From positions 608,001 to 672,000 of the forward strand of contig OX638340.1 in assembly GCA_951812955.1 (NCBI GenBank): a stretch of 64,000 nucleotides of DNA. Direction: 5' to 3'. Under the pieces are notes generated by a model. The model was given only the letters and a program-made list of their open reading frames with translations, was not told the DNA's origin and searched no databases. Shown here piece after piece: positions 17,435-37,747 of the stretch. This DNA is from an uncultured Gemmatimonadota bacterium (GTDB lineage: Bacteria > JAAXHH01). The position numbers and the translations under genes were made by a program. Positions within the stretch are counted from its first letter, which is position 1; each line of letters begins with the position of its first letter.

Positions 17435-18868
17435 TTAGCCTACGCTGCCTTCCAAGCTGATCCCCAGCAGCTTCTTCGCCTCCACGGCGAATTCCATGGG
17501 CAGTTCCTGAAACACTTCCTTGCAGAACCCGTTGATAATCATGGAAATGGCGTCTTCCGTGGATATGCCCCGGGTCTTGCAGTAGAATAACTGGTCTTCG
17601 CTGATCCGCGCCGTAGACGCTTCGTGTTCCACGCTCGCGGTGTTATTGCCCACGTCGATATAGGGGAAGGTGTGGGCACCGCAGCGGTCGCCGATGAGCA
17701 TCGAATCGCACTGGGTATAGTTCTTGGCTCCATCGGCCTTCTTCAGTACCTGGATCCGGCCCCGGTATACGTTCTGGCCGTTTCCGGCGGATATCCCTTT
17801 CGATACCACCGTGCTGCGCGTGTCCTTTCCCACGTGGATCATCTTGGTTCCCGTATCGGCCACCTGCTTGTTGCGGGTCAGCGCCACGGAATAGAACTCG
17901 CCGATCGAATGGTCGCCCTGCAGGATCACGCTGGGGTACTTCCAGGTGATGGCGGACCCCGTTTCCACCTGCGTCCAGGAGATCTTGGCGTTGTCCCCCT
18001 TGCAGATTCCGCGCTTGGTCACGAAGTTGTATACGCCGCCCTTTCCCTCTTCATTGCCGGGATACCAGTTCTGCACCGTGGAGTACTTGATCTGGGCGTC
18101 CTTCAGCGCAACCAGTTCCACGACGGCCGCGTGCAGTTGATTCTCGTCGCGCATCGGCGCGGTACAACCCTCGAGGTAGCTGACGTAGGAGCCCTCGTCG
18201 GCAATGATCAGCGTACGCTCGAATTGTCCCGTTCCGGCCGTGTTGATCCGGAAATAGGTGGACAGTTCCATGGGACACCGTACGCCGGGAGGGATGTAGC
18301 AGAAGGAACCGTCGCTGAAGACGGCCGAGTTCAGCGATGCAAAGTAGTTGTCCCTGTAGGGCACCACGGTACCCAGGTACTTCTCCACCAGGTCGGGATG
18401 TTCCTGCGCCGCTTCCGAGAAGGAACAGAAGATGATGCCCAGTTCTGCCAGCTTGTCCTTGAAGGTCGTGTGGACCGACACGCTGTCGAAAACCGCGTCC
18501 ACGGCCACGCCCGCTAGCATCTTCTGTTCCTCCAGCGGTATACCGAGCTTGTTGTAGGTTTCCAGCAGCTCGGGATCCACCTCGTCAAGGCTGTTGAATT
18601 CCGGCGTGTTCTTCGGCGCGGCGTAATAGACGATGTTCTGGTAATCGACCGGCGGATAGGCCATGTACTGCCAGTTGGGCTCCTTCATCTTGAGCCAGTG
18701 GCGATACGCCTTCAGACGCCATTCCAGCAGGAACCCGGGCTCATTCTTCTTTGCGGATATGAACCGGACTATATCCTCGTTGAGTCCCGGCGGCGCCGTT
18801 TCCATCTCGATATCGGTAACCCAGCCTTCTTTGTATTCCTGTTGGGCCAGGGTCTCAATGGCTTCCAT
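17435..18868 (-). CDS. sufB: Fe-S cluster assembly scaffold SufB.
   Basis: 477 aa. Characteristic SufB N-terminus ([28 protein letters not shown]) and the C-terminal SufBD domain. Confidence 0.9.
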
Positions 18869-18901
18869 TTTCTCTCCTTGAAACGAATGTAACCCGCCGC
18901 G

Positions 18902-19420
18902 CTAGCGGCCTATCTTGATCGTACTGCCCATCGCCTGGTCCCGCGAGGTATCCTGGGAGACCTGCTCCACCACCTCGAGTACCTGGAATTCCGTCTGCAG
19001 CAGGTCCGACAGGGATATGTGATCGAGCACACCGGACAGGTACCGGGCCAGCACCGTCCAGACGGGACGGATGGCGCATGCGTTCAGGTGCGTGCACGCT
19101 TCCAGGTGACCGGAGAAATGTTCGCACATGTGGCTGTCCGGGCTGGTGAGCACAACCCCGTCTTCCGAACTCAGGGCGCGCATGACTTCGCCCAGCGAAA
19201 TGGTGTGCGGTTCCTTCTCCAGTGCGTAGCCACCCCTGATACCCCTTACGCTTCGTACAAGACCTGACCGCCTGAGGATCATCAGCAGTTTCGAGACGTA
19301 GTCCAGGGAAATGCCTTCCGATTCTGCGATTTGACGGCCCGTGACCGGGTCACGGGAATGGTGCCGTGCCAGCTGCAGAATGCAACGAAGGCCATATTCT
19401 TCCTGGGCGGTCACTTTCAT
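18902..19420 (-). CDS. Rrf2-family Fe-S-binding transcriptional regulator (IscR/SufR-like). First gene of the suf operon.
   Basis: N-terminal wHTH (EEYGLRCILQLARH...GRQIAESEGISLDYVSKLL). Three-Cys cluster CEHFSGHLEACTHLNAC. Confidence 0.8.
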   Translation of the reverse strand: MKVTAQEEYGLRCILQLARHHSRDPVTGRQIAESEGISLDYVSKLLMILRRSGLVRSVRGIRGGYALEKEPHTISLGEVMRALSSEDGVVLTSPDSHMCEHFSGHLEACTHLNACAIRPVWTVLARYLSGVLDHISLSDLLQTEFQVLEVVEQVSQDTSRDQAMGSTIKIGR

Positions 19421-19460
19421 GCCTTTGTCTCCTCTTTCCGTTCAATTTGCCTAACTGAAT

Positions 19461-19489
19461 ATAGCAAACCGGACTTTTATGTCAAGTAT
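19461..19489. promoter_or_regulatory. Candidate Rrf2/IscR-type operator in the AT-rich divergent promoter upstream of the Rrf2 gene.
   Basis: ATAGCAAACCGGACTTTTATGTCAAGTAT starts ATAG and ends AGTAT with internal GAC...GTC. This is reminiscent of the IscR type-1 site. Judged by eye only. Confidence 0.25.
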
Positions 19490-19675
19490 TAAATCCGCAG
19501 CAGTCGGCTGGGTATCCCGTGCGTGATTTGCCTGTAACGTGTGACGACGAAGCCGGATCTGCAACGGCATGCGGAATGACCTGTTCTATCTCCTTGACAT
19601 GGGGGACATCAGAAGTTACCGTCGATCCCAATCCACTTTAATCCCACTAAGCTACTAAAAGGACATTCTCATCAA

Positions 19676-20758
19676 ATGCCCAAGAAACTGGATGTACGCA
19701 TGATACCCGGCACCCGTTCCGTCGACGCGCTGACTGGCGAAGGCTATTTCCCTGTCATCACCTGTCTGGGTGGCAATGAACTGCTCCTGGCCTACCGGGC
19801 CGGCGCAGCGCACATGGGCCTGGGCGGCCGGCTGGACGTGAGACGGTCGGTCGACGGGGGCCTTAACTGGACTGCGCCTGTGACCGTGGCCGACAGCGAA
19901 AGGGACGACCGTAACCCCGCGCTGGGTCTGGCGCCGGACGGTACGCTTGTACTGGCCTATCACTGGCAGGGGTCCTACGATGACGAAGGCGCATGGAAAC
20001 TGGAATTGGGCAGGGCCGATACTCGGGTCGTATTCTCCGAGGATGGCGGCCATACCTGGACCGGTGACGAGCTCATCGATTTCACTCCGATCAACGGCGC
20101 CTCGCCCTTCGGCAAGATCTTCACGGTAGACGGCGTCATGCACATGCTGATCTATGGCGGTTCGCCCTGCTGCGAGGCCGGATCTGGAACGGTCAGGGTC
20201 GGGCCGGCTTCGACGCCGACGTACATCCTCAGATCCAGGGACAACGGGCGATCCTGGGGGGATCCCACGCTGGTCGCACTGGGACTCAACGAATCGGACG
20301 CAGCCATCCTACCCGACGGCCGCTGGCTCTTCGTCGCCCGTTCCGAGGACCGCGCCGAACAGGCGCTTTATGCCTGCGTTTCTGAGGACGGCGGGTACAC
20401 ATGGCGCAACGTGGGACGGGTCACGGACGCAAAGGAACATCCGCCGGACATCACCCTGATGTCCAACGGATGGCTGCTGCTGCTCTTCGGGCGACGGCAT
20501 CCTCCCTTCGGCGTGGAGGGCCTGATCAGCCGGGACGGCGGGATGACCTGGGATGATCGAAGACTGGTTCTGGACGACTCCCTGCCCGGCGGCGACATCG
20601 GTTATCCCTCCACTGCCCGCCTCGAAGACGGTCGTCTGGTTACCGCCTATTACACCGCGGGAACAGCGGAGAGAAAGTGGGAGATGTTCCGTGCCGCAGA
20701 CGTAGCATGCAAGGTCGTGTCTTACGACGAGTCCAGCCTTATTGATCACTGGAGCTAA
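19676..20758 (+). CDS. BNR/Asp-box repeat sialidase-fold (six-bladed beta-propeller) glycoside hydrolase-like protein with no signal peptide.
   Basis: Five Asp-box SxDxGxTW repeats (SVDGGLNWT, SEDGGHTWT, SRDNGRSWG, SEDGGYTWR, SRDGGMTWD). 360 aa. The N-terminus is not hydrophobic. Confidence 0.65.
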   Translation: MPKKLDVRMIPGTRSVDALTGEGYFPVITCLGGNELLLAYRAGAAHMGLGGRLDVRRSVDGGLNWTAPVTVADSERDDRNPALGLAPDGTLVLAYHWQGSYDDEGAWKLELGRADTRVVFSEDGGHTWTGDELIDFTPINGASPFGKIFTVDGVMHMLIYGGSPCCEAGSGTVRVGPASTPTYILRSRDNGRSWGDPTLVALGLNESDAAILPDGRWLFVARSEDRAEQALYACVSEDGGYTWRNVGRVTDAKEHPPDITLMSNGWLLLLFGRRHPPFGVEGLISRDGGMTWDDRRLVLDDSLPGGDIGYPSTARLEDGRLVTAYYTAGTAERKWEMFRAADVACKVVSYDESSLIDHWS

Positions 20759-20806
20759 ATATCGTAATGCGCTGTCCAAGAGCAGGTTACGTATCAGGAA
20801 CCTTGT

Positions 20807-21937
20807 GTGAGACTCGTTGATTCCGGTGAAATCCGCGACGGCCGTGCCATCCCGGATCACCGCAGGAACTGCGCCTTCACCACCATCAACAGGCTGAACG
20901 ACGGCACGATCCTCGTTTCAGGCCGGTGGGGAACGGCGCGGGATTCGGTGGACGGGCACGCCTGCATCTGGGCCACGTCGGACACCGGCCGTACCTGGCG
21001 CCTTCGATATGACGGAAACGGGAAGGGGACTTGGGACGGAACAGCGGGTGAAGTCAAGGGACTGACGAGTACGGAGCTGTCCCCAGGCACGCTCACGGCG
21101 ACGGCCCTGTGGGTCGACCGTTCCAATCCGGATCTTCCTTTCATCCATCCGGAAACGCAGGGCCTGCTGCCCATGCGCATCATGCACGTCGACTCGGGGG
21201 ACGGTGGCCGCACATGGGGTCCGCCGCGCCGAATGGACACAACGCCCCACCTCGCCGCTTCCCCCTGTTCACACCATATCATCCGGTTGTCCGGCGGTAC
21301 CCTTGTCCAGCCCTACGAACAGTGGAAGGAATACGGGGACACGTCGCCGGGCCGGCCCGCCGCGAGGCTGCGGTTATCACGGGACGGTGGGCGTAGCTGG
21401 CCGGATTTCGTCACCGTGGCCCGGCATCCGGACAACAAGCTCGCCTACTGGGACCAGCGGCTGGCTGTCCATCCCGTTGACGGCCGCCTGGCCGCCACCT
21501 TCTGGACCCACGATTTCGATGCGGGCGTCGACATCGACATCCATATCGCCTACGGGTCGCCGGACGGCCGTGCGTGGACGATCCCCCGCGGCACCGGACT
21601 TCCCGGCCAGCACTGCCAGCCCCTCGCCCTTGGTGGGGATCGCCTGCTGGCCGCTTATCCGCGACGCGGGGATCCTCCCGGCATCGTGCTTTCCATCAGC
21701 GAGGATTTCGGCGAAAGCTGGGACCGGAGCCGGGATCTCCTAGTCTACGACAGCATCGCCGGCAATGAGTCCGGATCCCGCGGCAGCCGTACGCAGTCCG
21801 AATTGTGGGGTGACATGGAGCGCTGGCGCTTCGGACATCCCCGGATGGTGCGATTGCCGGACGACGAGGTGTTCGTCGTCTACTACGCGGGAGATGATGC
21901 CGTCAAGACCGCGCGGTGGGCGAGGGTCCGCGTTTAG
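20807..21937 (+). CDS. Second BNR/Asp-box sialidase-fold protein, tandem to the first, also without a signal peptide. GTG start.
   Basis: Asp boxes SDTGRTW, SGDGGRTWG, SRDGGRSWP, SPDGRAWT, SEDFGESWD. 376 aa. Confidence 0.65.
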   Translation: MRLVDSGEIRDGRAIPDHRRNCAFTTINRLNDGTILVSGRWGTARDSVDGHACIWATSDTGRTWRLRYDGNGKGTWDGTAGEVKGLTSTELSPGTLTATALWVDRSNPDLPFIHPETQGLLPMRIMHVDSGDGGRTWGPPRRMDTTPHLAASPCSHHIIRLSGGTLVQPYEQWKEYGDTSPGRPAARLRLSRDGGRSWPDFVTVARHPDNKLAYWDQRLAVHPVDGRLAATFWTHDFDAGVDIDIHIAYGSPDGRAWTIPRGTGLPGQHCQPLALGGDRLLAAYPRRGDPPGIVLSISEDFGESWDRSRDLLVYDSIAGNESGSRGSRTQSELWGDMERWRFGHPRMVRLPDDEVFVVYYAGDDAVKTARWARVRV

Positions 21938-22009
21938 CCCGGCTTCGACACTGTCTGCAGGGCAGTGCCGCTGAGGATACGGTCCGACGATCAGTGCAGC
22001 GCCTGGGGT

Positions 22010-22083
22010 GAACGACTCTGGCTCAGCCTCGCACATCCCGCCAGAGCCGCGCTTGCGGCGTTCGATCCGGGCTCAGCCCCTCA
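22010..22083. repeat. Two copies of an imperfect 25-bp direct repeat 49 bp apart. Copy 2 is the 3' end, including the stop codon, of the enolase-superfamily gene. Copy 1 is intergenic.
   Basis: ggctcagcctcgcacatcccgccag (22010-22034) versus ggctcagcccctcacatcccgccag (22059-22083). A small hairpin (gccgcgcttgcggc) lies between them. Confidence 0.6.
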
Positions 22084-23263
22084 CATCCCGCCAGGGACGA
22101 ACCATAATCCGCTCGAAACCTGCCGGATCGATGTCCACGCCGAGTCCCGGGCCCGGTGGTACCGCCACGCAGCCGTCCTCATCCAACACAAAAGGCTCGG
22201 CGAAATAACCCTTGCCGATGAACGTCCGCCCATCCTCGCGCCAGCAATTCACTTCATTGTGTTCCTGGACCAGGAAGTTCGACGCGCAGGCGTCGATCTG
22301 AATGGATGCGGCGAGGGCCAGCGGGCTTAAGGGGCAGTGCAGGGCGAGTTTCGCATAGGCGCTTTCACCCATCACCGCGATCTTGTGACACTCGGTGATG
22401 CCGCCGGCGTGGCACAGGTCCGGCTGCATCACGGACAGGGCGTTCTTGCGCAGGGCGTCGTAGAAGATCCACTTGCCCATCCAACGTTCGCCGGCTGCGA
22501 TAGGGATTTCGCTGTTGCGCGCGATGTCCGCGAGCACGTCGACCCGTTCCACGGGCATGGGTTCCTCGATGAACAGGGGCCGGTGCGGCGTCAGGGCCGA
22601 TATCATCTGTTTGGCCATCACGGGGTGTGGATTATGGATATCCACGGCCACTTCCACATCGGGCCCGGCGCCCCTGCGCACGGCGGCGAAGGCTTCGGCG
22701 ATCCGCTCCACCTCCGAGGTGGGTTCCAGTCCGGTGCCCATGCCCACGTGCAGCTTCATGCACCGGAAGCCCCACTCCTCGACAATGACCCTGGCCGCCT
22801 CCTCATGCGCCCCGGGAAAATCCACGTCCGGGTCATACGAAGGATGATAACCCGCGTCGTAGGGCTGCCCGGGTTCCACGTACCAGGGCAGTTGTCCCCC
22901 CACAGCGCGGTACATGCGTATCCGGTCGCGGCAGGCTCCGCCAAGCATGGCATGGACCGGAAGCCCTGCGGCTTTGCCGGCAAGGTCCCAGAGCGCCATG
23001 TCGATTCCGCTGATCGCGCTCATCTTCACCGGTCCGCCGACATATCCCGAACCGCCCTCGTACATGGTATGCCAGAGCGACTCGACGCGGCAGGGGTCTT
23101 TCCCGACAAGCAACGGCTCCAGGCGCCGCACCTCGGCGATGACGCTTTCCGGGTGGTTTTCCAGGTAGGGTTCGCCCCAGCCGAACAGTTCGGTGTCCGT
23201 GTGGATCTTCAGCCATACCCAACTCGGCGGAACGCGCAGGATTTCGAAGTGAGTGATTCGCAT
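22073..23263 (-). CDS. Enolase-superfamily (mandelate racemase/muconate lactonizing enzyme) sugar-acid dehydratase, D-mannonate/D-galactonate dehydratase-like.
   Basis: 396 aa. MR/MLE N- and C-domain motifs (GWGEPYLENH, MKLHVGMG, VDIHNPH, FIEEP, MQPDLCHAGGITE). Confidence 0.75.
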   Translation of the reverse strand: MRITHFEILRVPPSWVWLKIHTDTELFGWGEPYLENHPESVIAEVRRLEPLLVGKDPCRVESLWHTMYEGGSGYVGGPVKMSAISGIDMALWDLAGKAAGLPVHAMLGGACRDRIRMYRAVGGQLPWYVEPGQPYDAGYHPSYDPDVDFPGAHEEAARVIVEEWGFRCMKLHVGMGTGLEPTSEVERIAEAFAAVRRGAGPDVEVAVDIHNPHPVMAKQMISALTPHRPLFIEEPMPVERVDVLADIARNSEIPIAAGERWMGKWIFYDALRKNALSVMQPDLCHAGGITECHKIAVMGESAYAKLALHCPLSPLALAASIQIDACASNFLVQEHNEVNCWREDGRTFIGKGYFAEPFVLDEDGCVAVPPGPGLGVDIDPAGFERIMVRPWRDVRG

Positions 23264-23340
23264 GCTCGGCTTTGCTCCCTGTTCTTGATGGCATCATGTT
23301 CTGACGGTATCACAAATCGTGCAATGGCCAGGACGCCTAC

Positions 23341-24318
23341 CTATCGGCCATAGACCGTCTGGATCATCGCACGGATGTAGCCGTTCGCGTAGGCCTTGCC
23401 TGCCGGACCAGCCATTGATTGGGGGAAGCCCGGTGTGTGGTCCATGCCGAAGGGGCCGCTGTACCCGTTATCGCGGTAGGTTTCCATGGCCCGGCGCATA
23501 TCCACTTCGCCCTCGTCGATGAAAACCTCCGCGAACCTCGGCAGCCGGCCTCTGACGTTCCGGAAATGGACCAGGGCGATCTTTTTCCGGGAGGCCATCT
23601 CGGCGATGATATGGTAGACGTCCTGTGGACCCGCCAGTTCGGTCATGCAACCCTGGCAGAAGAGCATCCTGTGATATGCGCTGGGTACCGCGTCGAAAAT
23701 CCGGCGGAAATGCTCCACCGTGGAGCAGATCTGCGCGACGCCGCCCAGAGGCTCCGGTATGGGCGGGTCGTCCGGGTGGAGCGCCAGGTTTACCCCGGCC
23801 TTTTCGGCCGCCGGGACCGCGGCGCGCATGAAGGCGACCATGTTGTCCCACATCACCTCGGCCGAGACGGGCGGCTCGTGGGGCTGCGGGCGGCTCCGGT
23901 CGAATTCGGCATAATCGAAGGTACTGTACACCGCGCCGCCGCGGCCGATGTCGGAAATGGTGCGGAAGTTGCCCATGGGCTTGAAATTCCAGGCCAGGGT
24001 CGGTATCCCTGCCTTGCCCAGGCATTCGATAAGCCGGACGAAAGCGCCCAGTTCTTCGTCCCGTTCCGCCGTGGCCAGCGTGATCCCCTCCAGGACCGGC
24101 ATGAAGACGGTCTGCAGTTTCAGCCCATGGGACTCGGTCTTTTCCCGGGCCTGTTCGAAAAGCTCGGTACTGTCTTTGCCCGCACGAACGTGCCGTTCCG
24201 CTTCGACCTTCCCTCCGGTCCTCAGGTCCAGCTGGATCATGTCCACGCTGATCGCGCGATAGAAACTAAGGGTCTCGTCGTTGAAATCGGACCAGTTTAC
24301 GACATCATGCAGGTACAT
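23341..24318 (-). CDS. uxuA: D-mannonate dehydratase (UxuA family, xylose-isomerase-like TIM barrel).
   Basis: Matches UxuA blocks: FMPVLEG (cf. FMPVLDW), LALHPDDPPIPEPLGGVAQICSTVEH (cf. [24 protein letters not shown]), HFRNVRG, GMDHTPG. Confidence 0.7.
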   Translation of the reverse strand: MYLHDVVNWSDFNDETLSFYRAISVDMIQLDLRTGGKVEAERHVRAGKDSTELFEQAREKTESHGLKLQTVFMPVLEGITLATAERDEELGAFVRLIECLGKAGIPTLAWNFKPMGNFRTISDIGRGGAVYSTFDYAEFDRSRPQPHEPPVSAEVMWDNMVAFMRAAVPAAEKAGVNLALHPDDPPIPEPLGGVAQICSTVEHFRRIFDAVPSAYHRMLFCQGCMTELAGPQDVYHIIAEMASRKKIALVHFRNVRGRLPRFAEVFIDEGEVDMRRAMETYRDNGYSGPFGMDHTPGFPQSMAGPAGKAYANGYIRAMIQTVYGR

Positions 24319-24380
24319 CGATCGCCTCCAATGCTGGCGCTACGGGTTGGACGACTTCCGCTTCGACCTGACCTACGGGA

Positions 24381-24428
24381 TGGTGATCTGGTGATCTGGT
24401 GATCTGGTGATCTGGTGATCTGGTGATA
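24381..24428. repeat. Perfect 8-bp microsatellite (TGGTGATC)x5 plus one variant copy (TGGTGATA). It lies in the divergent promoter between uxuA (-) and the HpcH aldolase gene (+). Every full unit contains GATC.
   Basis: Read directly from the sequence: tggtgatctggtgatctggtgatctggtgatctggtgatctggtgata. Confidence 0.9.
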
Positions 24429-24518
24429 AGATAACCCCCCGGGCCAGTGCAGCAATTCGAAAATCGATCAGACACCACGTATATCCATATTGGGCTAACG
24501 CAAAGCGGAATCATGTAT

Positions 24519-24524
24519 TATAAT
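24519..24524 (+). promoter_or_regulatory. Candidate sigma70 -10 hexamer TATAAT, preceded by TG-T, oriented toward the HpcH aldolase gene.
   Basis: catgTATTATAATcgg in a locally AT-rich stretch. The best -35 candidate (TTGGGC at 24490-24495) has poor spacing, so confidence is low. Confidence 0.3.
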
Positions 24525-24550
24525 CGGTAGTCCGGCGCACCCGTAGGCAT

Positions 24551-24618
24551 AGCGCATCCATAGGCTAAGCGCATCCGTAGACTGAGCGCATCCGTAAGCC
24601 GGCGCATCCGAATATCGC
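24551..24618. repeat. Four tandem degenerate 17-bp direct repeats (core AGCGCATCCGTA) between the putative promoter and the HpcH aldolase start.
   Basis: agcgcatccataggcta / agcgcatccgtagactg / agcgcatccgtaagccg / gcgcatccgaatatcgc. Confidence 0.8.
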
Positions 24619-24687
24619 GTACGGAAACACGGAGTCAATCCCATCCCATTTCAATCTCGGCAGGCAAACGACACAGGAGCCCTTCCA

Positions 24688-25413
24688 ATGGCGGAACGCA
24701 ACTTGAAACAGCGCATCGGCGCGGGAGAACAGGTCATCGGCGCTAACGTCGGCATGTCCCATACAAGGGAACAGCTTAAAAAGGTAGTAGAGTCAGGTGA
24801 GTACGACTTTCTCTGGGTAGACGGACAGCACAGCGCTTTCAGCGAAGACTCCCTGGTGGAATTCTGCGACAGGGCCGATGCGCTGGATGCCGACGTCATG
24901 TTCCGCATCAAGCACACGTTTCACAGCTACCTGGTCGGTAACCTGCTCGACCTTGGGCCCGCCGGGATCGAAGTGCCCCAGGTCGAATTGGAATCAACGG
25001 TGGATGAGGCGGTCGACTTCTTCTACTATCCTCAGCAGGGCATGCGGAGCTGGGGAGGCGGAGCGCGGCGTAAAGTGGATGAACAGGGCGGCGACCGGCT
25101 GGGCTATGCCGAGTGGTGGAACAACTACGGCGTGCTGATGATGCAGCTTGAATCGATACCCGCGGTGACAGGTGCGCGGAGACTGGCCAAAGCGGGGGTA
25201 GACTGCCTGTCCTTCGGTCCAAACGATCTCATGTACAGTATCGAGGCCCATCCGCACCATCCGTTCCGCGACGTGGACGATTGCGTTCGCCACGTGGTCG
25301 AACAGCTCGCCGGTTCCGGTACGAGGGTGTGTTTCCGGAACCACCCGGCCAGCATGCGGCAGCGGTACGTTGACATGGGTGTAACGGTGTTTCTGGAGAG
25401 TCCGTCGCTGTAG
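24688..25413 (+). CDS. HpcH/HpaI-family 2-keto-3-deoxy-sugar-acid aldolase.
   Basis: 241 aa. Family blocks GANVGMSHTRE, DFLWVDGQHSAFSE, MFRIKHT, ESIPAVTGA, CLSFGPNDL. Confidence 0.7.
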   Translation: MAERNLKQRIGAGEQVIGANVGMSHTREQLKKVVESGEYDFLWVDGQHSAFSEDSLVEFCDRADALDADVMFRIKHTFHSYLVGNLLDLGPAGIEVPQVELESTVDEAVDFFYYPQQGMRSWGGGARRKVDEQGGDRLGYAEWWNNYGVLMMQLESIPAVTGARRLAKAGVDCLSFGPNDLMYSIEAHPHHPFRDVDDCVRHVVEQLAGSGTRVCFRNHPASMRQRYVDMGVTVFLESPSL

Positions 25414-25486
25414 AGGCTGCCGCCAGATAGAATTTGCCGATGCCGGCGGAGTTTTTCCCATTGCGGACGCGGTCCCCACGAATCTG

Positions 25487-27316
25487 TTATGCGCCGGGAC
25501 GCCCTCCGGCAATGTCGGATTTCGCATCGAAATCCAAAGACTGAGCCTCGTACATCTTCGCGAATAGACCACCCTGTTCTACCAGTTCCTTCGGCGTACC
25601 CGATTCGGCCAGTCGGCCCTCACTGATAACCAGGATGCGATCCGCGTGCCGGATCGTCGAGAGTCTGTGGGCGATGACCATGATGGTTCGGCCGGTCCTT
25701 GCCCGTTCGACGGCGATTCGGATCTCTTCTTCGGCCAGTGCATCCAGGGCCGAAGTGGCCTCGTCAAGCACGAGAATACAGGTCGAGGTCCGCATGAGCG
25801 CACGGGCCATGGCGATGCGTTGCTTTTCACCACCGGATAGCAGGATACCGTCTTCTCCCGCCTCGGTAGCGTACCCTTCCGGCAGATTCTCAACGAATTC
25901 GTGCAGTGCGGAAGAACGCGCGGCTCGCTCCACCGCCTCAATTTCATAGTCCGCAACGGGGTAAGCGATGTTGTCGGCAAGCGAAGCGTTCCACATGAAA
26001 ACATCCTGGGGCACGACGGCGATTCGCGACCTGAGAGAGGCCAGCGTCATCTCGCGTACATCCGTTCCGCCAATGGAAATGCTTCCGCTTTCTGGTTCCT
26101 GCATACGGGTCAGCAGGTCGATGATCGTGGTCTTCCCGCCGCCGCTCGGCCCCACGATGCCGACGAACTCACCCCCGTTGACCGTGAAGGAGAGATCTTT
26201 CACCTCGTATCCCCGTTCATAACTGAACCAAATGTCGGAAAACTCGATAGTCGGAGGCGTGATGTCGATCCGTTCCACCGGGCGTCCACGGCCGAATCCT
26301 TCCTCAGCGGGAAGCGCGAATAATCCGTCCAGGCTCTTCACGGAGACGTCGATGAGTTTTGTGCCGGTATAGGTCGCAATTACGGACCGCAACGCGGCGG
26401 AGGCTCTCGGCGTATAGGCCATGACGGCCACGAGACTGCCGATGGTGATATCACCGGCCATGGCCTGGAAAGCGCCATATCCGAGGAGGACGCCCAGGAC
26501 CAGTCCGCTGATCACTTCGTTCGGAAAGTTGAGCACGATATCGTGGAGGGCCGCACCACGCATCTTAACCCGGGCGTGTTTTTCTAATAGCCCCCCACAT
26601 CGCTTCCTGGTATGCGTTTCCCCATTGAACAGGCGTATCGTACGAAACGCGCCGACCATCTCGTAGAGGAAGCTCTCGACGGCCTTGCTCTGTTCGTTCG
26701 AACGGCGGTCCATTTCCTTCGAGTACCTGGACAGGAACCGGGTGGCCAGGTACGTCGCCGGCATCGCGACACAGAAAATCACCGCGAGTTCGACATTTAG
26801 CAGGAACACCATGATCAGCGTCCCCGCCAGCATGATCGAGCTTGTAAAGACGGGGAGCAGTTCCTGCGCGATGTACATCTCGCCGATCCGGCCGGTATCC
26901 CGCGTAACGCGAAAGACGATGTTCCCCCTGGGGATCTTTTCCAGGGCGTCCAGCCTGACATGCAGAAGGTGGTTCAGGACCGCCTTGCGCAGGGCAAGGG
27001 TAACCGACGCACCGATGCGGACCCGCAGATGTCCCTGTACGTAGGAGAAAGCGATCGCCACCAGCGGCGTGGCGACCATGGCCACCAGCAGTCTCCACGC
27101 CAGTGTTGTATCCGACTCCGGGATCGCCGTGTCGAAGAGCATTTTGAAGAACAGGGGCTGGATCAGCATGACCGCTGATCCAGCGAGCATCATGATAACC
27201 GCGGCGCCAATAGTATACTTATGTTGATACAGCGTCTGCCGAACGACTTTGGCGGCATGTGCCACCGGTTCTTTGTTCCTGTGGACTCGATTGGCTTTCC
27301 GATCGTCTGATGGCAT
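25487..27316 (-). CDS. ABC exporter, fused permease and ATPase (MsbA/type-I exporter-like).
   Basis: 609 aa. Six N-terminal TM helices. Walker A GPSGGGKTT. Signature LSGGEKQRIAMARA. Walker B ILVLDEATSALD. Confidence 0.85.
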   Translation of the reverse strand: MPSDDRKANRVHRNKEPVAHAAKVVRQTLYQHKYTIGAAVIMMLAGSAVMLIQPLFFKMLFDTAIPESDTTLAWRLLVAMVATPLVAIAFSYVQGHLRVRIGASVTLALRKAVLNHLLHVRLDALEKIPRGNIVFRVTRDTGRIGEMYIAQELLPVFTSSIMLAGTLIMVFLLNVELAVIFCVAMPATYLATRFLSRYSKEMDRRSNEQSKAVESFLYEMVGAFRTIRLFNGETHTRKRCGGLLEKHARVKMRGAALHDIVLNFPNEVISGLVLGVLLGYGAFQAMAGDITIGSLVAVMAYTPRASAALRSVIATYTGTKLIDVSVKSLDGLFALPAEEGFGRGRPVERIDITPPTIEFSDIWFSYERGYEVKDLSFTVNGGEFVGIVGPSGGGKTTIIDLLTRMQEPESGSISIGGTDVREMTLASLRSRIAVVPQDVFMWNASLADNIAYPVADYEIEAVERAARSSALHEFVENLPEGYATEAGEDGILLSGGEKQRIAMARALMRTSTCILVLDEATSALDALAEEEIRIAVERARTGRTIMVIAHRLSTIRHADRILVISEGRLAESGTPKELVEQGGLFAKMYEAQSLDFDAKSDIAGGRPGA

Positions 27317-27470
27317 GCCCTCGCTCTCCTATGGTCGTCGATTCTCACCAGTAGAGTACGAAATCGTACACGGACAGGGATCGTTCCGGCAGATTCCACA
27401 AAAAGGCAAAGCCCCCGGCGGCATTTACCACCGGGGGCCTGGATCTGCATACCTCTGGAGCGACCTGCGT

Positions 27471-28742
27471 CTATCCCTGCCCCGATCCGCCGAGGACGTC
27501 TTCCAACTCGTTCACGAACACCTCGAGTTCGTCCGGCTTCCCGATGGTTACCCGCAGGTGATTGCTCAGGAGATTGATCTCCCTCGTCCGGTACCCGGAA
27601 CCGCCCCGTACCATCACGCCGCGTTCCATAAGCGCGGAGCCCATGCGGCGGCTGTCCCGCTTGACGTCCACGATCATGTAATTGCCGTGGCTCGGTGTGT
27701 ATGCCAGTCCCAGACGGTCGAATTCGGCGGACAGGTAGTCCTTGCCGTCGCTCACGACCTCTTTCGTACGGGCTACGAATTCGTGATCGTCCAGGGCCGC
27801 GAGGGCCGCGTGCATGCCCAGGGTGCTCAGTCCGCCGCCGAAGAACCCCATGTGCGCCATCAGCATATCCATCATGCGCTGGCTGCCGATCGCGTACCCG
27901 ATTCGCATGCCGGCCAAGCCGTAGATCTTGGAAAAAGTACGGGCGACGACCACATTGTCTCGCTCCAGGGCGAGTTTCGCGGCATCCCGGTAGTCCGGAT
28001 CCCGGACGAAGTGGATGTAGGCCTCGTCGATGAGGACGATGGCCTGCGCTGGCGCCGCGTCTACGAGGGACACCAGGTCCTCGTAGGGCACGATCGTTCC
28101 CGTGGGATTGTTGGGATTGGTGACGACGATCAGGGATGTTCTTGGAGTGATTGCCGCCTTCATGGCGTCGAGGTCGTGAACGAAGTCAGCCGTCGTGGGA
28201 ACGCGGACGGTACTGACGTCCTTGCCCATCATCTGATAGGTTTGAAAACCACGCGCGACCGATCCATAACCCGGGACCGCCTCGATGCACTCCCCGCCAT
28301 TGCTCGCGGCTATTACGGCCAGCGCCTGTAGTATCGGACCGGAACCAGGCGTGACCATTACCCGGTTCAACTCCCTGAAACGCATGAATGACCGCATGTC
28401 GCTAAAGCTCAGTTCGAAATCCTCGACACCCGGAACGCCGTGTAATTTGTTGAGACGAACGGGCAGATCGACACCGAAATCGTACCGGTTGATCTTGTGC
28501 AGGTTTTCGGCAATGGCCGCAACGGCGCGTGGCGAAGCGCCCAGGGGATTCTCGTTGGCTCCAATCTGGACCCGGCCCGGTTCCACGCCGTATCCGCGGA
28601 CGTCGCCGGCCTTCTTACCGGTCGCCATGGCCTGCGCGATCTCCCAGGCCGAACCTGAGGCGAGGGCGCCGGCACCCAGCAGGGCGCCTTTCATGAATCG
28701 ACGCCGCGTAAACCCGTTTTTTAATACACTCCCGAAACCCAT
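27471..28742 (-). CDS. Class I/II PLP-dependent aminotransferase (histidinol-phosphate/aromatic aminotransferase-like) with an N-terminal twin-arginine (Tat) signal peptide. Putatively periplasmic.
   Basis: Tat motif TRRRFMKGALLGAGALASGSAWE. Aminotransferase blocks GANENPLGASP, NPNNPTG. PLP-Lys context TFSKIYGLAGMRIGY. Confidence 0.75.
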   Translation of the reverse strand: MGFGSVLKNGFTRRRFMKGALLGAGALASGSAWEIAQAMATGKKAGDVRGYGVEPGRVQIGANENPLGASPRAVAAIAENLHKINRYDFGVDLPVRLNKLHGVPGVEDFELSFSDMRSFMRFRELNRVMVTPGSGPILQALAVIAASNGGECIEAVPGYGSVARGFQTYQMMGKDVSTVRVPTTADFVHDLDAMKAAITPRTSLIVVTNPNNPTGTIVPYEDLVSLVDAAPAQAIVLIDEAYIHFVRDPDYRDAAKLALERDNVVVARTFSKIYGLAGMRIGYAIGSQRMMDMLMAHMGFFGGGLSTLGMHAALAALDDHEFVARTKEVVSDGKDYLSAEFDRLGLAYTPSHGNYMIVDVKRDSRRMGSALMERGVMVRGGSGYRTREINLLSNHLRVTIGKPDELEVFVNELEDVLGGSGQG

Positions 28743-28903
28743 GGTATGAACCTCCATTCAATGATTACTCGTAAATTGCATCGTATCTACAAAGTGTACA
28801 CCACCTAAGAGTCTGAACCTCCAACTAAAGATTGCCTGCGGATTTCCCACCATCCAAATGTGTAACGCCTGAATTCGAAACCTTATTTCGCTACCTTATT
28901 TCG

Positions 28904-30568
28904 TTACCTGATGTTGAGCCTTGCCATTTGCGTGACGATGTAGTCGGCGCAGCGGAACGCGAGCGCCTGTATGGTTAGCGTCGGGTTGCTCTTGCCGCTG
29001 GTGACGAAGGACGAACCGTCGACGATGAACAGGTTGTCCACGTCGTGGGCCTGGTTGAACTTGTTCACGACCGACGTCGCCGGATCGTTGCCCATTCGGC
29101 AAGTGCCCATGAGATGGGCGTCGCCATGGGGCACGAAATTCGGAGAGGCCACGATCCCATGGGCGCCGGCGGTGTCCAGCAGTTCGCGTGCGCGGTCCCG
29201 AAAGAAGTCGCCGAGTTTGTGCTCGTTCGGATGCACGTTGTACGTCACACGCGGTACCGGCAGGCCCCACTTGTCGTTTACGTCCGGGTCCAGGTCGATC
29301 ATGTTGGATTCCTGGGACATGGACTGCATGCTGGTAAGGGCGACCATGTACCGGGTGTAATTGTCCATGATCCATTTCTTGCGGCGGGCGCCCCACCTGC
29401 GGAGCCGGGGCATGTTCAGGTTGGCGAAGGAAATGGTTTCGCCGTCACCCCGCGGTTCCAGCACGCCTCCGCCGAAGAAACCGTACTTGTCCGGATCCGG
29501 GTCGTAGAAATCCTGGATAATGCGTGAATCCATGACGCCTTTGTACTCGTTGAGATCCTTTTCGTAGAATCCCCGGGCGGACTGGTAGTAGTTGAACATC
29601 AGGTGCCTTCCCACCTTGCCGCTGCTGTTGGCGAGGCCGTCCGGAAAGAGATTGGACTTCGACATGAGCAGCAGGCGCGGCGTATGGACGCCGTTACAGC
29701 AAACGATTACCGCGCGGGCTTCCAACCGGTGTTCACGCAGGTCTTTATCCAGATAGATCACTCCCTCGGCCCGGCCATCCTCGTCGACCACGATCTCCCG
29801 AACGCAGGCATCGGCCCGTATCTGGCAGTTGCCCGTCCTCAGCGCCTGGGGAATCATGGTAACCAGCATGCTGGACCGCGCGCCGATGGTACAGACGTAA
29901 CTTTCGCAGAAACCGCAATTCATGACCGGCGGCCGGCCTCCGTATTCCCGCGAGTTGATTGCCAGCGGCGCCGGATACGAGTGCCATCCCAGCTTCTGGG
30001 CGGCCATGTCTGCCAGGGCGCCCGAACTGGTTCGCGGCACCGGCGGCATGGGGTAGGGACGGCGTCGCGGCGGATCGAAGGGATTGGCGCCCGCCAGGCC
30101 GGATATCCCGACTTCGTATTCGGCCTTCTCGTAGTAATGTTCCAGGTCCCAGTAGTCGATGGGCCAGTCCTGCACGTCCGCGCCGTCCAGGTCGCCGAAA
30201 AGGCTTCTTTCCTTGAAATCGTTCTCGTGCAGCCGCCAGGAAATACCGGTGTAATGGAGCGTGCTGCCGCCCACCGTGCTTTGCATGTGAATCCCGTGAT
30301 CTTCAACGGCCTGATCGTCCGACGACTGCCGGTACGTATTGGGCTGATCGTGGCGATAGATGTTGGGATGGTCATGGTTATTGCTGGCGGGATGCATCGC
30401 CTGGAGTTCGTCCTGGTCGAAGTGGCGCGTCTTTTGAAATGATCCCATTTCCATGGCGACCACCTGCAGGCCCTTCGTGCTCAGTTCCTTGGCCATGACC
30501 GCGCCGGCGGCGCCTGTGCCGATGACGATGACGTCCGGTCGTCGAATCGTGGGATTGGGCAGGGACAT
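28904..30568 (-). CDS. GMC-family FAD-dependent oxidoreductase, large subunit (gluconate 2-dehydrogenase / glycoside 3-dehydrogenase-like).
   Basis: Rossmann FAD motif [22 protein letters not shown]-terminal blocks ([33 protein letters not shown]). 554 aa. Confidence 0.8.
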
Positions 30569-30581
30569 GGGGACTCCGAAA

Positions 30582-31262
30582 CTACGCTTCGCCGACGATT
30601 CTACTCTTCATCGGACCGTCATATGGCTTCCATTCGGGGTATTCGATCTCCGGAATGGTCATGTCGAATTCACTGAAAGGGGGATCGTAGCCAAAAGCCG
30701 CGCGACCTGGAAATCGGATCAGCTTCCATCCGGTCTCGCGATAGTTTCCGCCATAGGAGGGATCACTGAACATGCCCTCCATGGTATGCGTGACCAGCAT
30801 GCGCAGGAAATCCCTGGCGCCCATGGGGGCGTCGTCCGGCCAGTTCCGCGGGGACCTTGCACGGTCGATACCCATCAGGGCCCTGCGCTGATTTCTTGTA
30901 TCGAGATCCAGGAAGCCGGCTTCGTGCGAGAGCTGACAGTACCGGTCGAAAGCGGCCAGGCCGGAGACATAGGACTCCTTGTATTCGGCCCGGTGGCTGC
31001 CGAGGGCCCGGTCGATGTATACGATCACGCGGGCTTCCGCCGCACCGGGGTCGTTGTCGTCGGACGGCATGATCATCCGGGTCAGCGCGTCCACGGTACG
31101 GCCCTGGCGGGCGTCCAGGTTCTGCCAGGTGTATTCGAAGGGAGGTGTTTCCTGGGCGTCGATCGCACCGGTACGGGACAGCACGCCAAGTGTTATCACT
31201 CCACCGGTCGCCCGTGCGGTATTGGAAAGAAACGATCGGCGGGAAAACGGCTTTGACGTCAT
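30582..31262 (-). CDS. Small (gamma) subunit of a gluconate-2-dehydrogenase-type GMC oxidoreductase, with a Tat signal peptide.
   Basis: Tat motif SRRSFLSNTARATGGVITLGVLS after the Met at 31262. Lies 13 nt upstream of the GMC large-subunit gene. Confidence 0.6.
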   Translation of the reverse strand: MTSKPFSRRSFLSNTARATGGVITLGVLSRTGAIDAQETPPFEYTWQNLDARQGRTVDALTRMIMPSDDNDPGAAEARVIVYIDRALGSHRAEYKESYVSGLAAFDRYCQLSHEAGFLDLDTRNQRRALMGIDRARSPRNWPDDAPMGARDFLRMLVTHTMEGMFSDPSYGGNYRETGWKLIRFPGRAAFGYDPPFSEFDMTIPEIEYPEWKPYDGPMKSRIVGEA

Positions 31263-31460
31263 GGATTCCAGGCTCCCGACTCTATAGTTTCCATCGTTCG
31301 AATGCACATCAGGACTGTATACACATATCGCGTTGATTTATTCAATCTATCCGCTTCGAAAATACGGTTGAAAACCGGGTTGACAATAGAATTCGGCAGG
31401 GTTCTGATCGCGCGGGCAAAGAGGTTGACGGCAATACCCGCGAATCTATATTCATAAAGC

Positions 31461-32417
31461 ATGAACATTCTGAAGCCGCAGGCCCTCAAACCAGGTGATA
31501 CAATCGGGATCGTCGCACCGGCCAGCCATTCCGCGCTCCCGAGCGCGCTGCTGAACGGCCGCCGTTCACTCGAAGCCCTCGGATTCCACACGGTGACCGC
31601 ACCGCACCTGGCGGACAGGCACGGTTTTCTGGCCGGCCGGGACGCCGACCGCCTGGCCGACCTGGAAGGCATGTTCACCGATCCAGATATCCATGGAATC
31701 GTTTGCCTTCGCGGCGGATACGGGTCCGTCCGCATGCTGCAGCGCATGGATTTCGATATCGTCCGCACCAACCCCAAGGTCTTCGTCGGATACAGCGACA
31801 TAACCGCCCTCCATGGGGCAATCCATCAACGTACCGGCCTGGTCACCTTTTGGGGTCCCATGGTTGCCTCGGATATGAGTCCGGGTTTCCACCCATACAA
31901 CCGGGATGCCTTCATGAAGGCGGTTACAGGAGCCGATTCCATAGGCAGCATCGTGCATCCCGAGGACATGCCTCCCGTGCAGACCATTCATGGCGGCATG
32001 GCCGCGGGCCCTCTGATCGGTGGCACGCTTTCGTTACTCGCGGCCGCGGTCGGAACACCTTACGAATTCGAGTACGACGGTGCGATCCTGTTTTTCGAGG
32101 ACGTAGGCGAGGAGCCCCACCGGATCGACCGGATGCTGACGCAACTGCTTCAGTCCGGCAGGCTGGATTGCCTGTCCGGGATCGTAATCGGAGAATGTGC
32201 CGGGTGTGGCAGCGCGCCTGACAATCCCGCTTTCCCCTATGGCAACTTCAGTATAGAAGAAGTGTTCCTGGACCGGCTTCAACCGCTCGGAATCCCGGTA
32301 ATCTATGGCCTGGGCATCGGTCACGGGACGTTCAAGGCGACCCTGCCTCTGGGGGTACGGGCTACGCTGGACGGGGATGCACGCACCCTCGCAATCGACG
32401 AACCCGGTGTCATTTAG
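31461..32417 (+). CDS. LD-carboxypeptidase (peptidase S66, LdcA/MccF-like).
   Basis: 318 aa. S66 blocks GDTIGIVAPAS, LRGGYGS, GYSDITALH, GIGHGT. Confidence 0.7.
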   Translation: MNILKPQALKPGDTIGIVAPASHSALPSALLNGRRSLEALGFHTVTAPHLADRHGFLAGRDADRLADLEGMFTDPDIHGIVCLRGGYGSVRMLQRMDFDIVRTNPKVFVGYSDITALHGAIHQRTGLVTFWGPMVASDMSPGFHPYNRDAFMKAVTGADSIGSIVHPEDMPPVQTIHGGMAAGPLIGGTLSLLAAAVGTPYEFEYDGAILFFEDVGEEPHRIDRMLTQLLQSGRLDCLSGIVIGECAGCGSAPDNPAFPYGNFSIEEVFLDRLQPLGIPVIYGLGIGHGTFKATLPLGVRATLDGDARTLAIDEPGVI

Positions 32418-32475
32418 TCTCGACGTTCCGCATCGCCTCCCGCGCGGCAAACGGAATGTATGACAGGGAAAACCT

Positions 32476-33417: not shown

Positions 33418-33433
33418 GGTTGGTTTTATTCCG

Positions 33434-35853: not shown

Positions 35854-35949
35854 CATATACAGGAACAGTAAGTTGAATGAGTTAGTTGAGACATTAAATG
35901 CCGGTCTCTTAATGCACACGAACGACGCAATCAGCAAAGGAATACCACC

Positions 35950-36696: not shown

Positions 36697-36768
36697 TCAT
36701 ACAGCGAGAGACGGGATACGACCTTCCTGTCGCGTTCGTATCCCCGGATCGGATTCAAAGGTGAATCG

Positions 36769-37728: not shown

Positions 37729-37747
37729 CCGGCTTACGTGTTCCGAA

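What the first reader, a model, noticed from the sequence alone, without database searches (positions are those of the whole stretch)
24381..24428. 8-bp GATC-containing microsatellite in a divergent catabolic promoter: candidate phase-variation or methylation switch
Five perfect TGGTGATC units plus one variant copy (TGGTGATA) sit 63 nt upstream of the uxuA start, between it and the divergent HpcH promoter. The unit length is not a multiple of 3, and the array is intergenic. Slipped-strand copy-number change would alter promoter spacing. Each full unit carries GATC, giving five regularly spaced (8-bp) potential Dam-type methylation sites. This resembles pap- or agn43-style epigenetic switches, though more compact.
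Basis: seen in the sequence. Interest (0 to 1): 0.55.

Follow-up and report, generated by a model that had tools for sequence, protein, structure and literature searches.

The report
Variable 8-bp repeat in uxuA leader
A perfect 8-base repeat upstream of a sugar-acid catabolic operon in an uncultured Gemmatimonadota genome does change copy number between near-identical genomes (2, 4 or 6 units), but it is a young slippage product in the gene's leader, with no sign of a promoter-spacing or methylation switch.

Summary
Window 24381-24427 is (TGGTGATC)x5 plus TGGTGAT, with five GATC sites. It lies 62 nt upstream of a UxuA-like gene, which is divergent from an HpcH aldolase gene.

An independent contig (ENA ptg002375l) differs from the window by 3 SNPs over 13 kb and by exactly two repeat units (4 vs 6 copies). 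Five closer relatives carry 2 copies, and others carry only an imperfect proto-repeat (AACACCAG-ATCACCAT). So this is a true, lineage-specific, slippage-prone repeat.

Footprinting across four divergent groups conserves TTGCnn-N16-TAT(C/T)TT, and this motif ends exactly where the array begins. By this prediction the array lies at the transcription start, in the 5' leader of uxuA. It is not between -35 and -10, and it is outside the core shared by the two divergent promoters. Copy number changes leader length in 8-nt steps, as with the 7-bp repeat at H. influenzae hmw1A P2.

The methylation reading has no support. GATC is not conserved at the site (0-1 in relatives), its frequency in the window is as expected, and the window encodes no DNA methyltransferase. 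Whether the rest of the genome encodes a Dam could not be checked.

RNA folding predicts no effect of copy number on ribosome-binding-site access. Any effect on expression is untested.

Verdict: a new member of a known kind, of modest interest.

The parts
24381..24427 (-). Octanucleotide repeat array. In uxuA sense it reads (ATCACCAG)x5 + ATCACCA. On the + strand it reads (TGGTGATC)x5 + TGGTGAT and carries five GATC sites.
   Evidence: Copy number is 6 here, 4 in L001/L139, and 2 in L133/L134/L136/L138/L140.
24428..24433 (-). Predicted -10 hexamer TATCTT of the uxuA promoter. It directly abuts the array.
   Evidence: TAT(C/T)TT is present in all 15 related loci aligned, while the flanking sequence diverges. 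This is a prediction; no transcription start data exist.
24450..24455 (-). Predicted -35 hexamer TTGCTG of the uxuA promoter.
   Evidence: TTGC is invariant. The 16-nt spacing to the -10 is conserved although the spacer sequence is not (window, L006, L148, L152). The consensus scanner did not report it because it matches only 3 of 6 positions of TTGACA.
24325..24329 (-). Shine-Dalgarno GGAGG of uxuA, within the extended GGAGGCGAUC.
   Evidence: GGAG is conserved in all relatives except L152, which has AGAGG.
23341..24318 (-). UxuA-like mannonate dehydratase / TIM-barrel gene, 325 aa.
   Evidence: PF03786 at 1.2e-38 and PF01261. Cluster members are named mannonate dehydratase [Gemmatimonadota].
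22073..23263 (-). Enolase-superfamily (MR_MLE) gene 77 nt downstream of uxuA on the same strand. Probably in the same operon.
   Evidence: PF13378 and PF02746. Synteny is kept in most relatives; the gene is absent at this position in L152.
24428..24524 (.). Conserved core of the divergent promoter region. In uxuA sense it contains the blocks CGATTATAAT, CGTTAGCCnAATnTGG, ATTTTCGnATTGC and TATCTT.
   Evidence: These blocks are invariant or nearly so across four divergent groups (UxuA identity 86-97%), whereas the two leaders are not alignable.
24519..24524 (+). Predicted -10 TATAAT of the HpcH promoter, inside the palindrome ATTATAAT (24517-24524). A -35-like CTAACG lies at 24495-24500.
   Evidence: GGCTAACG-N16-ATTATAAT keeps its spacing with a variable spacer sequence in all groups. 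This is a prediction only.
24535..24610 (+). A second variable tandem repeat, with a 17-bp unit and about 4.5 copies. It lies in the predicted HpcH leader.
   Evidence: Copy number among relatives ranges from none detected to 6.5.
24688..25413 (+). Divergently transcribed HpcH/HpaI-family aldolase gene.
   Evidence: PF03328 at 6.4e-14.

Best explanation
The array is a young, lineage-specific octanucleotide microsatellite created by slipped-strand mispairing from an older direct repeat, CACCA-N3-CACCA. That older repeat sits immediately downstream of the predicted -10 box of the uxuA promoter.

Shown: a substitution made the two proto-units identical (AACACCAG-ATCACCAT became ATCACCAG-ATCACCAT). 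The tract then expanded to 4 and 6 units in the window's lineage only. It has changed length within a segment that otherwise differs by 3 SNPs in 13 kb.

Inferred: the array is transcribed as the 5' end of the uxuA / enolase-superfamily operon leader. Unit gain or loss lengthens or shortens the 5' UTR in 8-nt steps (about 71, 87 or 103 nt). The -35/-10 spacing and the divergent HpcH promoter are left untouched.

Inferred, weakly: the effect on expression is at most graded, a 'rheostat' as at hmw1A P2, and may be close to neutral. The five GATC sites are a by-product of the unit junction (..CAG|ATC..). They are not the basis of a methylation switch.
For: - Perfect array.
- Copy-number difference: L001/L139 (ENA ERZ18545484 ptg002375l) is identical to window 18300-31556 except for 3 SNPs and one 16-bp gap of exactly two units.
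- Graded series at the same site:
  - AACTCCAG-ATCACCAT in L135/L137
  - AACAACAA-ATCACCAT in L003
  - AACACCAG-ATCACCAT in L004/L005
  - ATCACCAG-ATCACC(A/G)T, 2 units, in L133/L134/L136/L138/L140
  - 4 units in L001
  - 6 units in the window
  - TACACCAGACCACCAT in L148-L151
- No foreign flanks: relatives are colinear on both sides of the array.
- Promoter footprint: TTGCnn-N16-TAT(C/T)TT is kept with a variable spacer in groups with 86-97% UxuA identity, and it ends at the array.
- Not coding: the 16- and 32-bp length differences break the only ORF that crosses the array, 24305-24514.
- No Rfam match.
- Known precedent: a short repeat that overlaps a -10 box, lies in the 5' UTR and lowers expression as it lengthens, at hmw1A P2 (PMC8262952, PMC2424069).
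Against: - The transcription start is predicted only from conservation and weak hexamer matches. TTGCTG matches 3 of 6 and TATCTT 4 of 6, and the consensus scan did not list the site.
- Only two genomes carry an expanded tract, so the evidence for hypermutability rests on one event (or two single-unit events).
- No expression data exist.
- ViennaRNA predicts no copy-number effect on Shine-Dalgarno accessibility (probability unpaired 0.34-0.37 for 1-11 copies). A leader-length effect therefore has no computed mechanism.
- The block just after the -10 (ACACCAGAyCACCATCCC) is conserved in distant relatives. It could be an operator, in which case expansion might have a stronger effect than assumed.
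Confidence: 0.6

Rival explanations
1. True contingency locus. The repeat is maintained by selection as a stochastic expression switch or rheostat for the uxuA sugar-acid catabolic operon. This would give the population subclones with different catabolic capacity, mechanistically like the hmw1A/hmw2A 7-bp repeats.
For: - Copy number differs between near-identical genomes.
- The tract abuts the predicted -10 and lies in the leader, the same layout as hmw1A P2.
- A second variable repeat sits in the opposite leader.
Against: - The expanded tract exists only in the window's lineage.
- Five close relatives have a stable 2-unit state, and other relatives have no perfect repeat. So the repeat is not a conserved feature of the locus.
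- The target is a housekeeping catabolic operon, not a surface or restriction-modification gene.
- No predicted effect on ribosome-binding-site access.
Confidence: 0.25
2. Operator multiplication. The conserved CACCA-N3-CACCA block just downstream of the -10 is the binding site of a regulator. Expansion multiplies its half-sites and so changes repression of uxuA.
For: ACACCAGAyCACCATCCC is conserved next to the -10 in groups whose remaining leader cannot be aligned.
Against: - No GntR, IclR or LacI-type regulator was found in the Pfam-annotated ORFs of the window. An Rrf2 regulator is present but belongs to the suf cluster.
- The motif does not recur upstream of other genes in the window. Its only other near-match is inside a coding region.
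- An 8-bp spacing puts successive sites on different faces of the helix.
- The L006 group lacks the motif.
Confidence: 0.08
3. Dam-type epigenetic switch. The five GATC sites at 8-bp spacing are differentially methylated in competition with a DNA-binding protein, giving heritable ON/OFF states as at pap or agn43.
For: Five GATC sites within 40 bp next to a promoter. GATC is not avoided in the window, which is compatible with protective or orphan methylation.
Against: - GATC is not conserved at the site. There are 0 in L003, L006 and L148, and 1 in the other relatives compared. No ancestral methylation-dependent control is therefore likely.
- The GATCs arise only from unit junctions.
- No methyltransferase was found in the window.
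- No Lrp- or OxyR-like site was identified.
- The same unit forms arrays in many genomes in all intergenic contexts, including convergent 3' ends.
Confidence: 0.03
4. Assembly artefact. The 4- versus 6-copy difference comes from mis-assembly or consensus error in one long-read assembly.
For: The two assemblies differ by several 1-bp indels elsewhere (window 37957-39822). At least one of them may therefore contain consensus errors.
Against: - The gap is exactly two units, inside 13 kb that contains no other indel.
- The array is only 47 bp, far shorter than a long read.
- The contigs belong to distinct strains, with 2-5% divergence in neighbouring segments.
- The 1-bp indels are confined to the divergent segment.
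Confidence: 0.03

Closest known systems
hmw1A/hmw2A heptanucleotide (ATCTTTC)n repeat of nontypeable Haemophilus influenzae
   Same: - A short tandem repeat whose unit length is not a multiple of 3.
- It abuts or overlaps the -10 box of the active promoter (P2) and lies in the 5' UTR.
- Copy number varies between isolates.
- It changes leader length, not the -35/-10 spacing (PMC8262952, PMC2424069).
   Different: - hmw tracts are long (9-28 units) and are conserved as a feature of the locus across strains.
- They control a surface adhesin, and experiments show that expression falls as they lengthen.
- Here the tract is short (2-6 units) and confined to one lineage.
- It sits upstream of a catabolic operon, and the promoter, transcription start and effect on expression are only inferred.
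Repeats in the -35/-10 spacer (H. influenzae hifA/hifB TA repeats; Neisseria opc, porA; Bordetella fim poly-C)
   Same: An intergenic repeat next to a promoter; the hif case also has divergent promoters. This comparison rests on my own knowledge of the literature.
   Different: Those tracts lie between the -35 and the -10 and switch the promoter on or off by changing the spacer length. Here the 16-nt spacer is conserved and the array lies outside it.
Dam-dependent epigenetic switches (E. coli pap, agn43)
   Same: GATC sites clustered near a promoter.
   Different: In pap and agn43 the GATC sites are conserved, few in number, and embedded in Lrp or OxyR binding sites. Their number does not change. 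Here the GATCs are repeat junctions, are absent or single in relatives, and no competing binding protein or Dam enzyme was identified.
Dispersed short tandem repeats such as the cyanobacterial STRR heptamers
   Same: The same octamer (TGGTGATC)n occurs as many independent arrays per genome in some Acidobacteriota MAGs. This resembles genome-wide families of 7-bp tandem repeats. The STRR comparison is from my own knowledge.
   Different: In the window's 64 kb there is only this one array, and it arose in place from local sequence. It is not a copy of a dispersed element.

Membership tests
Repeat-mediated phase-variable (contingency) locus, transcriptional type | An uninterrupted tandem repeat tract in a promoter or 5' leader | tested here: met
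   A perfect 47-bp tract lies between the conserved -10-like hexamer and the Shine-Dalgarno sequence. The promoter assignment is a prediction.
Repeat-mediated phase-variable (contingency) locus, transcriptional type | Tract length differs among closely related genomes | tested here: met
   6, 4 and 2 units. The 6-versus-4 difference lies within 13 kb that carries only 3 SNPs.
Repeat-mediated phase-variable (contingency) locus, transcriptional type | The repeat tract is maintained at the locus across strains or species | tested here: not met
   Only the window and L001/L139 have more than 2 units. Thirteen other orthologous loci have 2 units, an imperfect pair or no repeat.
Repeat-mediated phase-variable (contingency) locus, transcriptional type | High-frequency, reversible length change within a clonal population | not testable with these tools
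   This needs per-read repeat counts or culture experiments. Only assembled consensus sequences were available.
Repeat-mediated phase-variable (contingency) locus, transcriptional type | Tract length changes expression of the adjacent gene | not testable with these tools
   The only proxy was RNA folding, which shows no change in Shine-Dalgarno accessibility for 1-11 copies.
Repeat in the -35/-10 spacer (hif, opc, porA, fim type) | The repeat lies between the -35 and -10 hexamers, so unit changes alter spacer length | tested here: not met
   The conserved TTGCnn-N16-TAT(C/T)TT lies wholly upstream of the array, with a fixed 16-nt spacer in all groups.
hmw1A-type 5'-UTR repeat rheostat | The repeat starts at the -10 box of the active promoter and is transcribed in the leader | tested here: inconclusive
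   The layout fits the prediction, but no transcription start data are available.
hmw1A-type 5'-UTR repeat rheostat | More repeats give less transcript or protein | not testable with these tools
   Requires reporter fusions or expression data.
Dam-methylation epigenetic switch (pap / agn43 type) | GATC sites conserved within a regulator's binding sites at the promoter | tested here: not met
   0 or 1 GATC at the site in every relative. No recurring operator motif.
Dam-methylation epigenetic switch (pap / agn43 type) | A GATC-specific adenine methyltransferase encoded in the genome | not testable with these tools
   None was found among the window's ORFs. GATC observed/expected of 0.97 is uninformative.
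Dam-methylation epigenetic switch (pap / agn43 type) | Two heritable, mutually exclusive methylation patterns | not testable with these tools
   Needs 6mA calling on single molecules.

The most novel reading that the evidence does not exclude
The octamer is not just a slippage product but a functional, copy-number-tunable element. TGGTGATC arrays recur at dozens of independent loci per genome in several Acidobacteriota MAGs, and some persist at orthologous sites with only 75-81% flank identity. In uxuA sense the unit carries GAUCACC, 7 nt of the canonical 16S rRNA 3' tail, and on the other strand GGUGAUC, the distal part of an extended Shine-Dalgarno sequence. Such arrays could form an undescribed class of GATC-bearing, ribosome- or methylation-interacting leader or UTR repeats. 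The Gemmatimonadota uxuA array would then be a newly born example whose length tunes operon expression.
Probability: 0.08. Interest if true: 0.7.

Novelty: new member of a known kind. Interest (0 to 1): 0.33.

Why it matters
Short-repeat variation next to promoters is well studied in host-adapted pathogens, where it drives phase variation of surface and restriction-modification genes. It is hardly documented in uncultured environmental or symbiotic phyla, or for catabolic operons.

This locus offers a clean series showing how a microsatellite is born, at one orthologous site in Gemmatimonadota: imperfect pair, then perfect pair, then 4 and 6 units. The length change is demonstrated between near-identical genomes. 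The position mirrors the experimentally characterised hmw1A P2 layout.

If the repeat length does tune uxuA expression, stochastic expression tuning would extend to carbon-source use in an uncultured lineage. If it does not, the locus is still a useful strain-typing marker and an example of leaders as the insertion-tolerant parts of a compact divergent promoter.

Tried and rejected
- Rfam search of 24150-24850 at E<=5 found nothing. The array is not a known riboswitch or small RNA.
- The sigma-70 consensus scan listed only two weak sites, neither in the conserved core. I relied on conservation across relatives instead.
- I inspected the conserved TTGC block by eye as a possible sigma-54 -12 element, because rpoN is in the window. 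The -24 GG is absent, so I rejected this.
- RNA folding of the leader with 1-11 units showed Shine-Dalgarno and AUG accessibility unchanged.
- Anti-Shine-Dalgarno mimic idea: the unit-to-RBS duplex is only -8.4 kcal/mol, against -16.1 for the 16S tail. Given the result, I rejected it as a copy-number mechanism.
- Regulon search for the proto-repeat motif in the window found no other intergenic site.
- Coding reading: the 69-aa ORF 24305-24514 crosses the array, but the 16- and 32-bp length differences break its frame, so it is spurious.
- Mobile-element origin is rejected. Relatives are colinear on both sides, and flanks of the same unit's arrays in other genomes are mostly unrelated.
- A methyltransferase motif scan ([DNS]PP[YFWH]) hit only shadow ORFs overlapping longer genes. 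Pfam on about 36 ORFs found no DNA methyltransferase.
- Control scans of IMG/VR: the unit's arrays are no more common than those of two shuffled units (1 vs 5 vs 1). There is no sign of unit-specific enrichment in viruses.
- Two contig look-ups failed because my ORF starts differed from the called genes. The comparison with ptg002375l therefore stops at window 40458.
- A crude ORF-context analysis of the Acidobacteriota arrays gave no promoter-specific pattern. It is limited by spurious ORFs in high-GC DNA.
- No paper in the library contains the repeat sequence.

Full report
**1. Observation**

Window 24381-24427 is a perfect period-8 tract: TGGTGATC x5 followed by TGGTGAT. TRF gives 5.9 copies, 100% matches and score 94. 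It is the longest perfect periodic run in the 64-kb window, with 39 consecutive self-matches at lag 8. About 9e-19 such runs are expected from base composition.

Five GATC sites lie at 24385, 24393, 24401, 24409 and 24417.

23341-24318 on the minus strand is UxuA-like (PF03786 at 1.2e-38, plus PF01261). 24688-25413 on the plus strand is an HpcH/HpaI aldolase. Downstream of uxuA, on the same strand, lies an enolase-superfamily (MR_MLE) gene at 22073-23263.

Proteins in the same 90%-identity cluster as the window's UxuA are named Gemmatimonadota. The window's own protein is recorded on a 3,813,436-bp NCBI/ENA contig.

**2. Copy number really varies**

Looking up contigs that encode exactly the window's UxuA returned ENA ERZ18545484 contig ptg002375l (L001, L139).

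Over window 18300-31556 this contig differs by 3 substitutions and a single 16-bp gap. The gap removes exactly two units, giving 4 copies against 6. Adjacent segments are about 5% divergent (31556-33340) and about 2% divergent (33431-40458). The two contigs therefore belong to different strains that share a nearly identical 13-kb segment.

The substitution divergence within that segment is about 2.3e-4 per site. At that rate a 47-bp stretch would be expected to show about 0.01 changes. The array is therefore much more mutable than ordinary sequence. No other indel and no other tandem repeat changed in the segment.

A 16-bp difference of exactly two units in a 47-bp tract, in long-read assemblies, is unlikely to be a consensus error.

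**3. Origin of the array**

Orthologous intergenic regions were retrieved through close UxuA homologues and one pattern scan and then aligned (summary). In uxuA sense, directly after a conserved TATCTT, the site reads:

| Loci | Sequence after TATCTT |
|---|---|
| L148-L151 | TACACCAG-ACCACCAT |
| L135, L137 | AACTCCAG-ATCACCAT |
| L003 | AACAACAA-ATCACCAT |
| L004, L005 | AACACCAG-ATCACCAT |
| L133, L134, L136, L138, L140 | ATCACCAG-ATCACC(A/G)T (2 units) |
| L001/L139 | 4 units |
| window | 6 units |

The L006 group has unrelated sequence at this position.

An ancestral imperfect direct repeat (CACCA-N3-CACCA) became a perfect two-unit repeat. It then expanded only in the window's lineage. 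The two-unit state is stable across assemblies that differ by SNPs and by the copy number of the neighbouring 17-bp repeat. This is the usual length-threshold behaviour of microsatellites. Both flanks are colinear with the relatives, so nothing was inserted from elsewhere.

**4. Position relative to the promoters**

Across four groups (UxuA identity 86-97%) the intergenic region cannot be aligned except for a core at window 24428-24524. In uxuA sense the core contains:

- CGATTATAAT
- CGTTAGCCnAATnTGG
- ATTTTCGnATTGC
- TAT(C/T)TT

TTGCnn and TAT(C/T)TT are always 16 nt apart although the spacer sequence differs. That pattern is the signature of a sigma-70-type -35/-10 pair. The window coordinates are 24450-24455 and 24428-24433 on the minus strand.

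In the other direction, GGCTAACG-N16-ATTATAAT likewise keeps its spacing with a variable spacer. This gives a perfect TATAAT for HpcH at 24519-24524.

The two promoters therefore appear to be back-to-back inside the core, and both tandem repeats lie outside it. The 8-bp array starts at the base after the uxuA -10. The 17-bp array (24535-24610) starts 10 nt after the HpcH -10.

On this model the uxuA transcript starts at about 24421-24424, inside the first unit. The array is then the 5' end of the leader, which would be about 103 nt in the window, 87 nt in L001 and 71 nt in the 2-unit relatives.

This promoter assignment is an inference from conservation. The hexamers are weak (3 of 6 and 4 of 6), and the consensus scanner did not list them.

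Whichever of the conserved hexamers is used, the array is not between a -35 and a -10. It also does not change the geometry between the two core promoters.

**5. What the array probably does**

The closest experimentally characterised layout is the H. influenzae hmw1A P2 promoter. There a 7-bp repeat overlaps the -10 and lies in the 5' UTR, and it lowers expression as it lengthens. The mechanism is unresolved (PMC8262952, PMC2424069). By analogy, unit changes here could tune expression of the uxuA operon.

I could not find a computed mechanism:

- Partition-function folding of the leader with 1-11 units leaves Shine-Dalgarno accessibility at 0.34-0.37.
- The unit contains GAUCACC, which matches the canonical 16S 3' tail. 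It can pair with the extended uxuA RBS GGAGGCGAUC, but only at -8.4 kcal/mol against -16.1 for the 16S tail itself.

The expanded tract is confined to one lineage, and the target is a catabolic operon. I therefore rate a near-neutral or weakly modulating repeat as most likely, and a selected contingency switch as a real but less likely alternative.

The block ACACCAGAyCACCATCCC is conserved next to the -10 in distant relatives, so it could be an operator. However, no regulator gene was found among the annotated ORFs of the window and no second intergenic copy of the motif was found there.

**6. The methylation hypothesis**

- The GATCs are unit junctions (..CAG|ATC..).
- Relatives have 0 or 1 GATC at the site, so there is no conserved methylation target.
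- GATC is neither avoided nor enriched in the window (497 observed, observed/expected 0.97 under a second-order model).
- No DNA methyltransferase domain or credible N6-methyltransferase motif occurs in the window (gene calls).

The remainder of the genome could not be searched. The hypothesis is therefore unsupported but not excluded, and I give it about 3%.

**7. Side observation**

These are concentrated in Acidobacteriota MAGs, with many loci per genome: 22 in MFD04850.bin.2.120, 11 in CA_2019_TPBF_99 and 9 in MFD09206.bin.1.2.

The flanks are mostly unrelated, so the arrays are not carried by one mobile element. A few orthologous loci keep the array at 75-81% flank identity.

A crude ORF-context analysis found them in divergent, tandem and convergent intergenic regions alike. 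They are therefore not promoter-specific.

In IMG/VR the unit is not commoner than shuffled control units. No paper in the library contains the sequence.

This does not change the reading of the window's array, which arose in place. It does show that this particular GATC-bearing octamer recurrently forms arrays, and that deserves separate study.

**8. Verdict**

It is a new member of a known kind, a promoter-proximal / 5'-UTR short tandem repeat, found in an uncultured Gemmatimonadota lineage. Interest is modest (0.33).

Noticed in passing
window 24535-24610 (and L003-L005, L133-L138, L140, L006): A second variable tandem repeat (17-bp unit, CGGATGCGCTCAGCCTA in uxuA sense) lies in the predicted HpcH leader. 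TRF gives 4.5 copies in the window and L001, about 3.1 in L003/L004/L005, 5.4 in the L133 group, 6.5 in L140, and none in L135/L137. The L006 group has an unrelated 25-bp x3.8 repeat at the same position. Both leaders of this divergent promoter are therefore repeat-prone.
   Followed up: partly
One genome has up to 22 loci. Arrays reach 12.6 copies and are often bordered by degenerate 8-mers (nnnTGATC). Flanks are mostly unrelated, and a few orthologous sites keep the array at 75-81% flank identity. The arrays sit in all intergenic contexts, including convergent ones.
   Followed up: partly
window 18300-40458 vs L139: Divergence from contig ptg002375l is mosaic. There are 3 SNPs over 18300-31556, about 100 SNPs over 31556-33340 (about 5%), and about 2% divergence over 33431-40458. 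This suggests recent recombination between strains.
   Followed up: partly
window 37957-39822; 39054-40841: About a dozen 1-bp indels separate the two assemblies in this stretch. The LTD-domain gene is an intact 595-aa ORF in the window but is split in L139. The same gene holds a 9/18/27/36-bp coding repeat at 39761-39935. The indels are either real decay in one strain or consensus errors in one assembly.
   Followed up: no
window 24319-24335 and 24381-24427: The uxuA RBS is an extended Shine-Dalgarno sequence, GGAGGCGAUC. In uxuA sense the repeat unit carries GAUCACC, identical to 7 nt of the canonical 16S rRNA 3' tail. The predicted unit-to-RBS duplex is -8.4 kcal/mol, but no copy-number effect on accessibility is predicted.
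   Followed up: yes
window 24305-24514 (-): A 69-aa ORF runs through the array and the promoter core. The 16- and 32-bp length differences among relatives break its frame, so it is not a gene.
   Followed up: yes
window 24428-24524: Between the two predicted -35 elements lies the conserved block CGTTAGCCnAATnTGG. In HpcH sense this reads CCAnATTnGGCTAACG. It may be a shared regulator site, but no candidate regulator was identified in the window.
   Followed up: no
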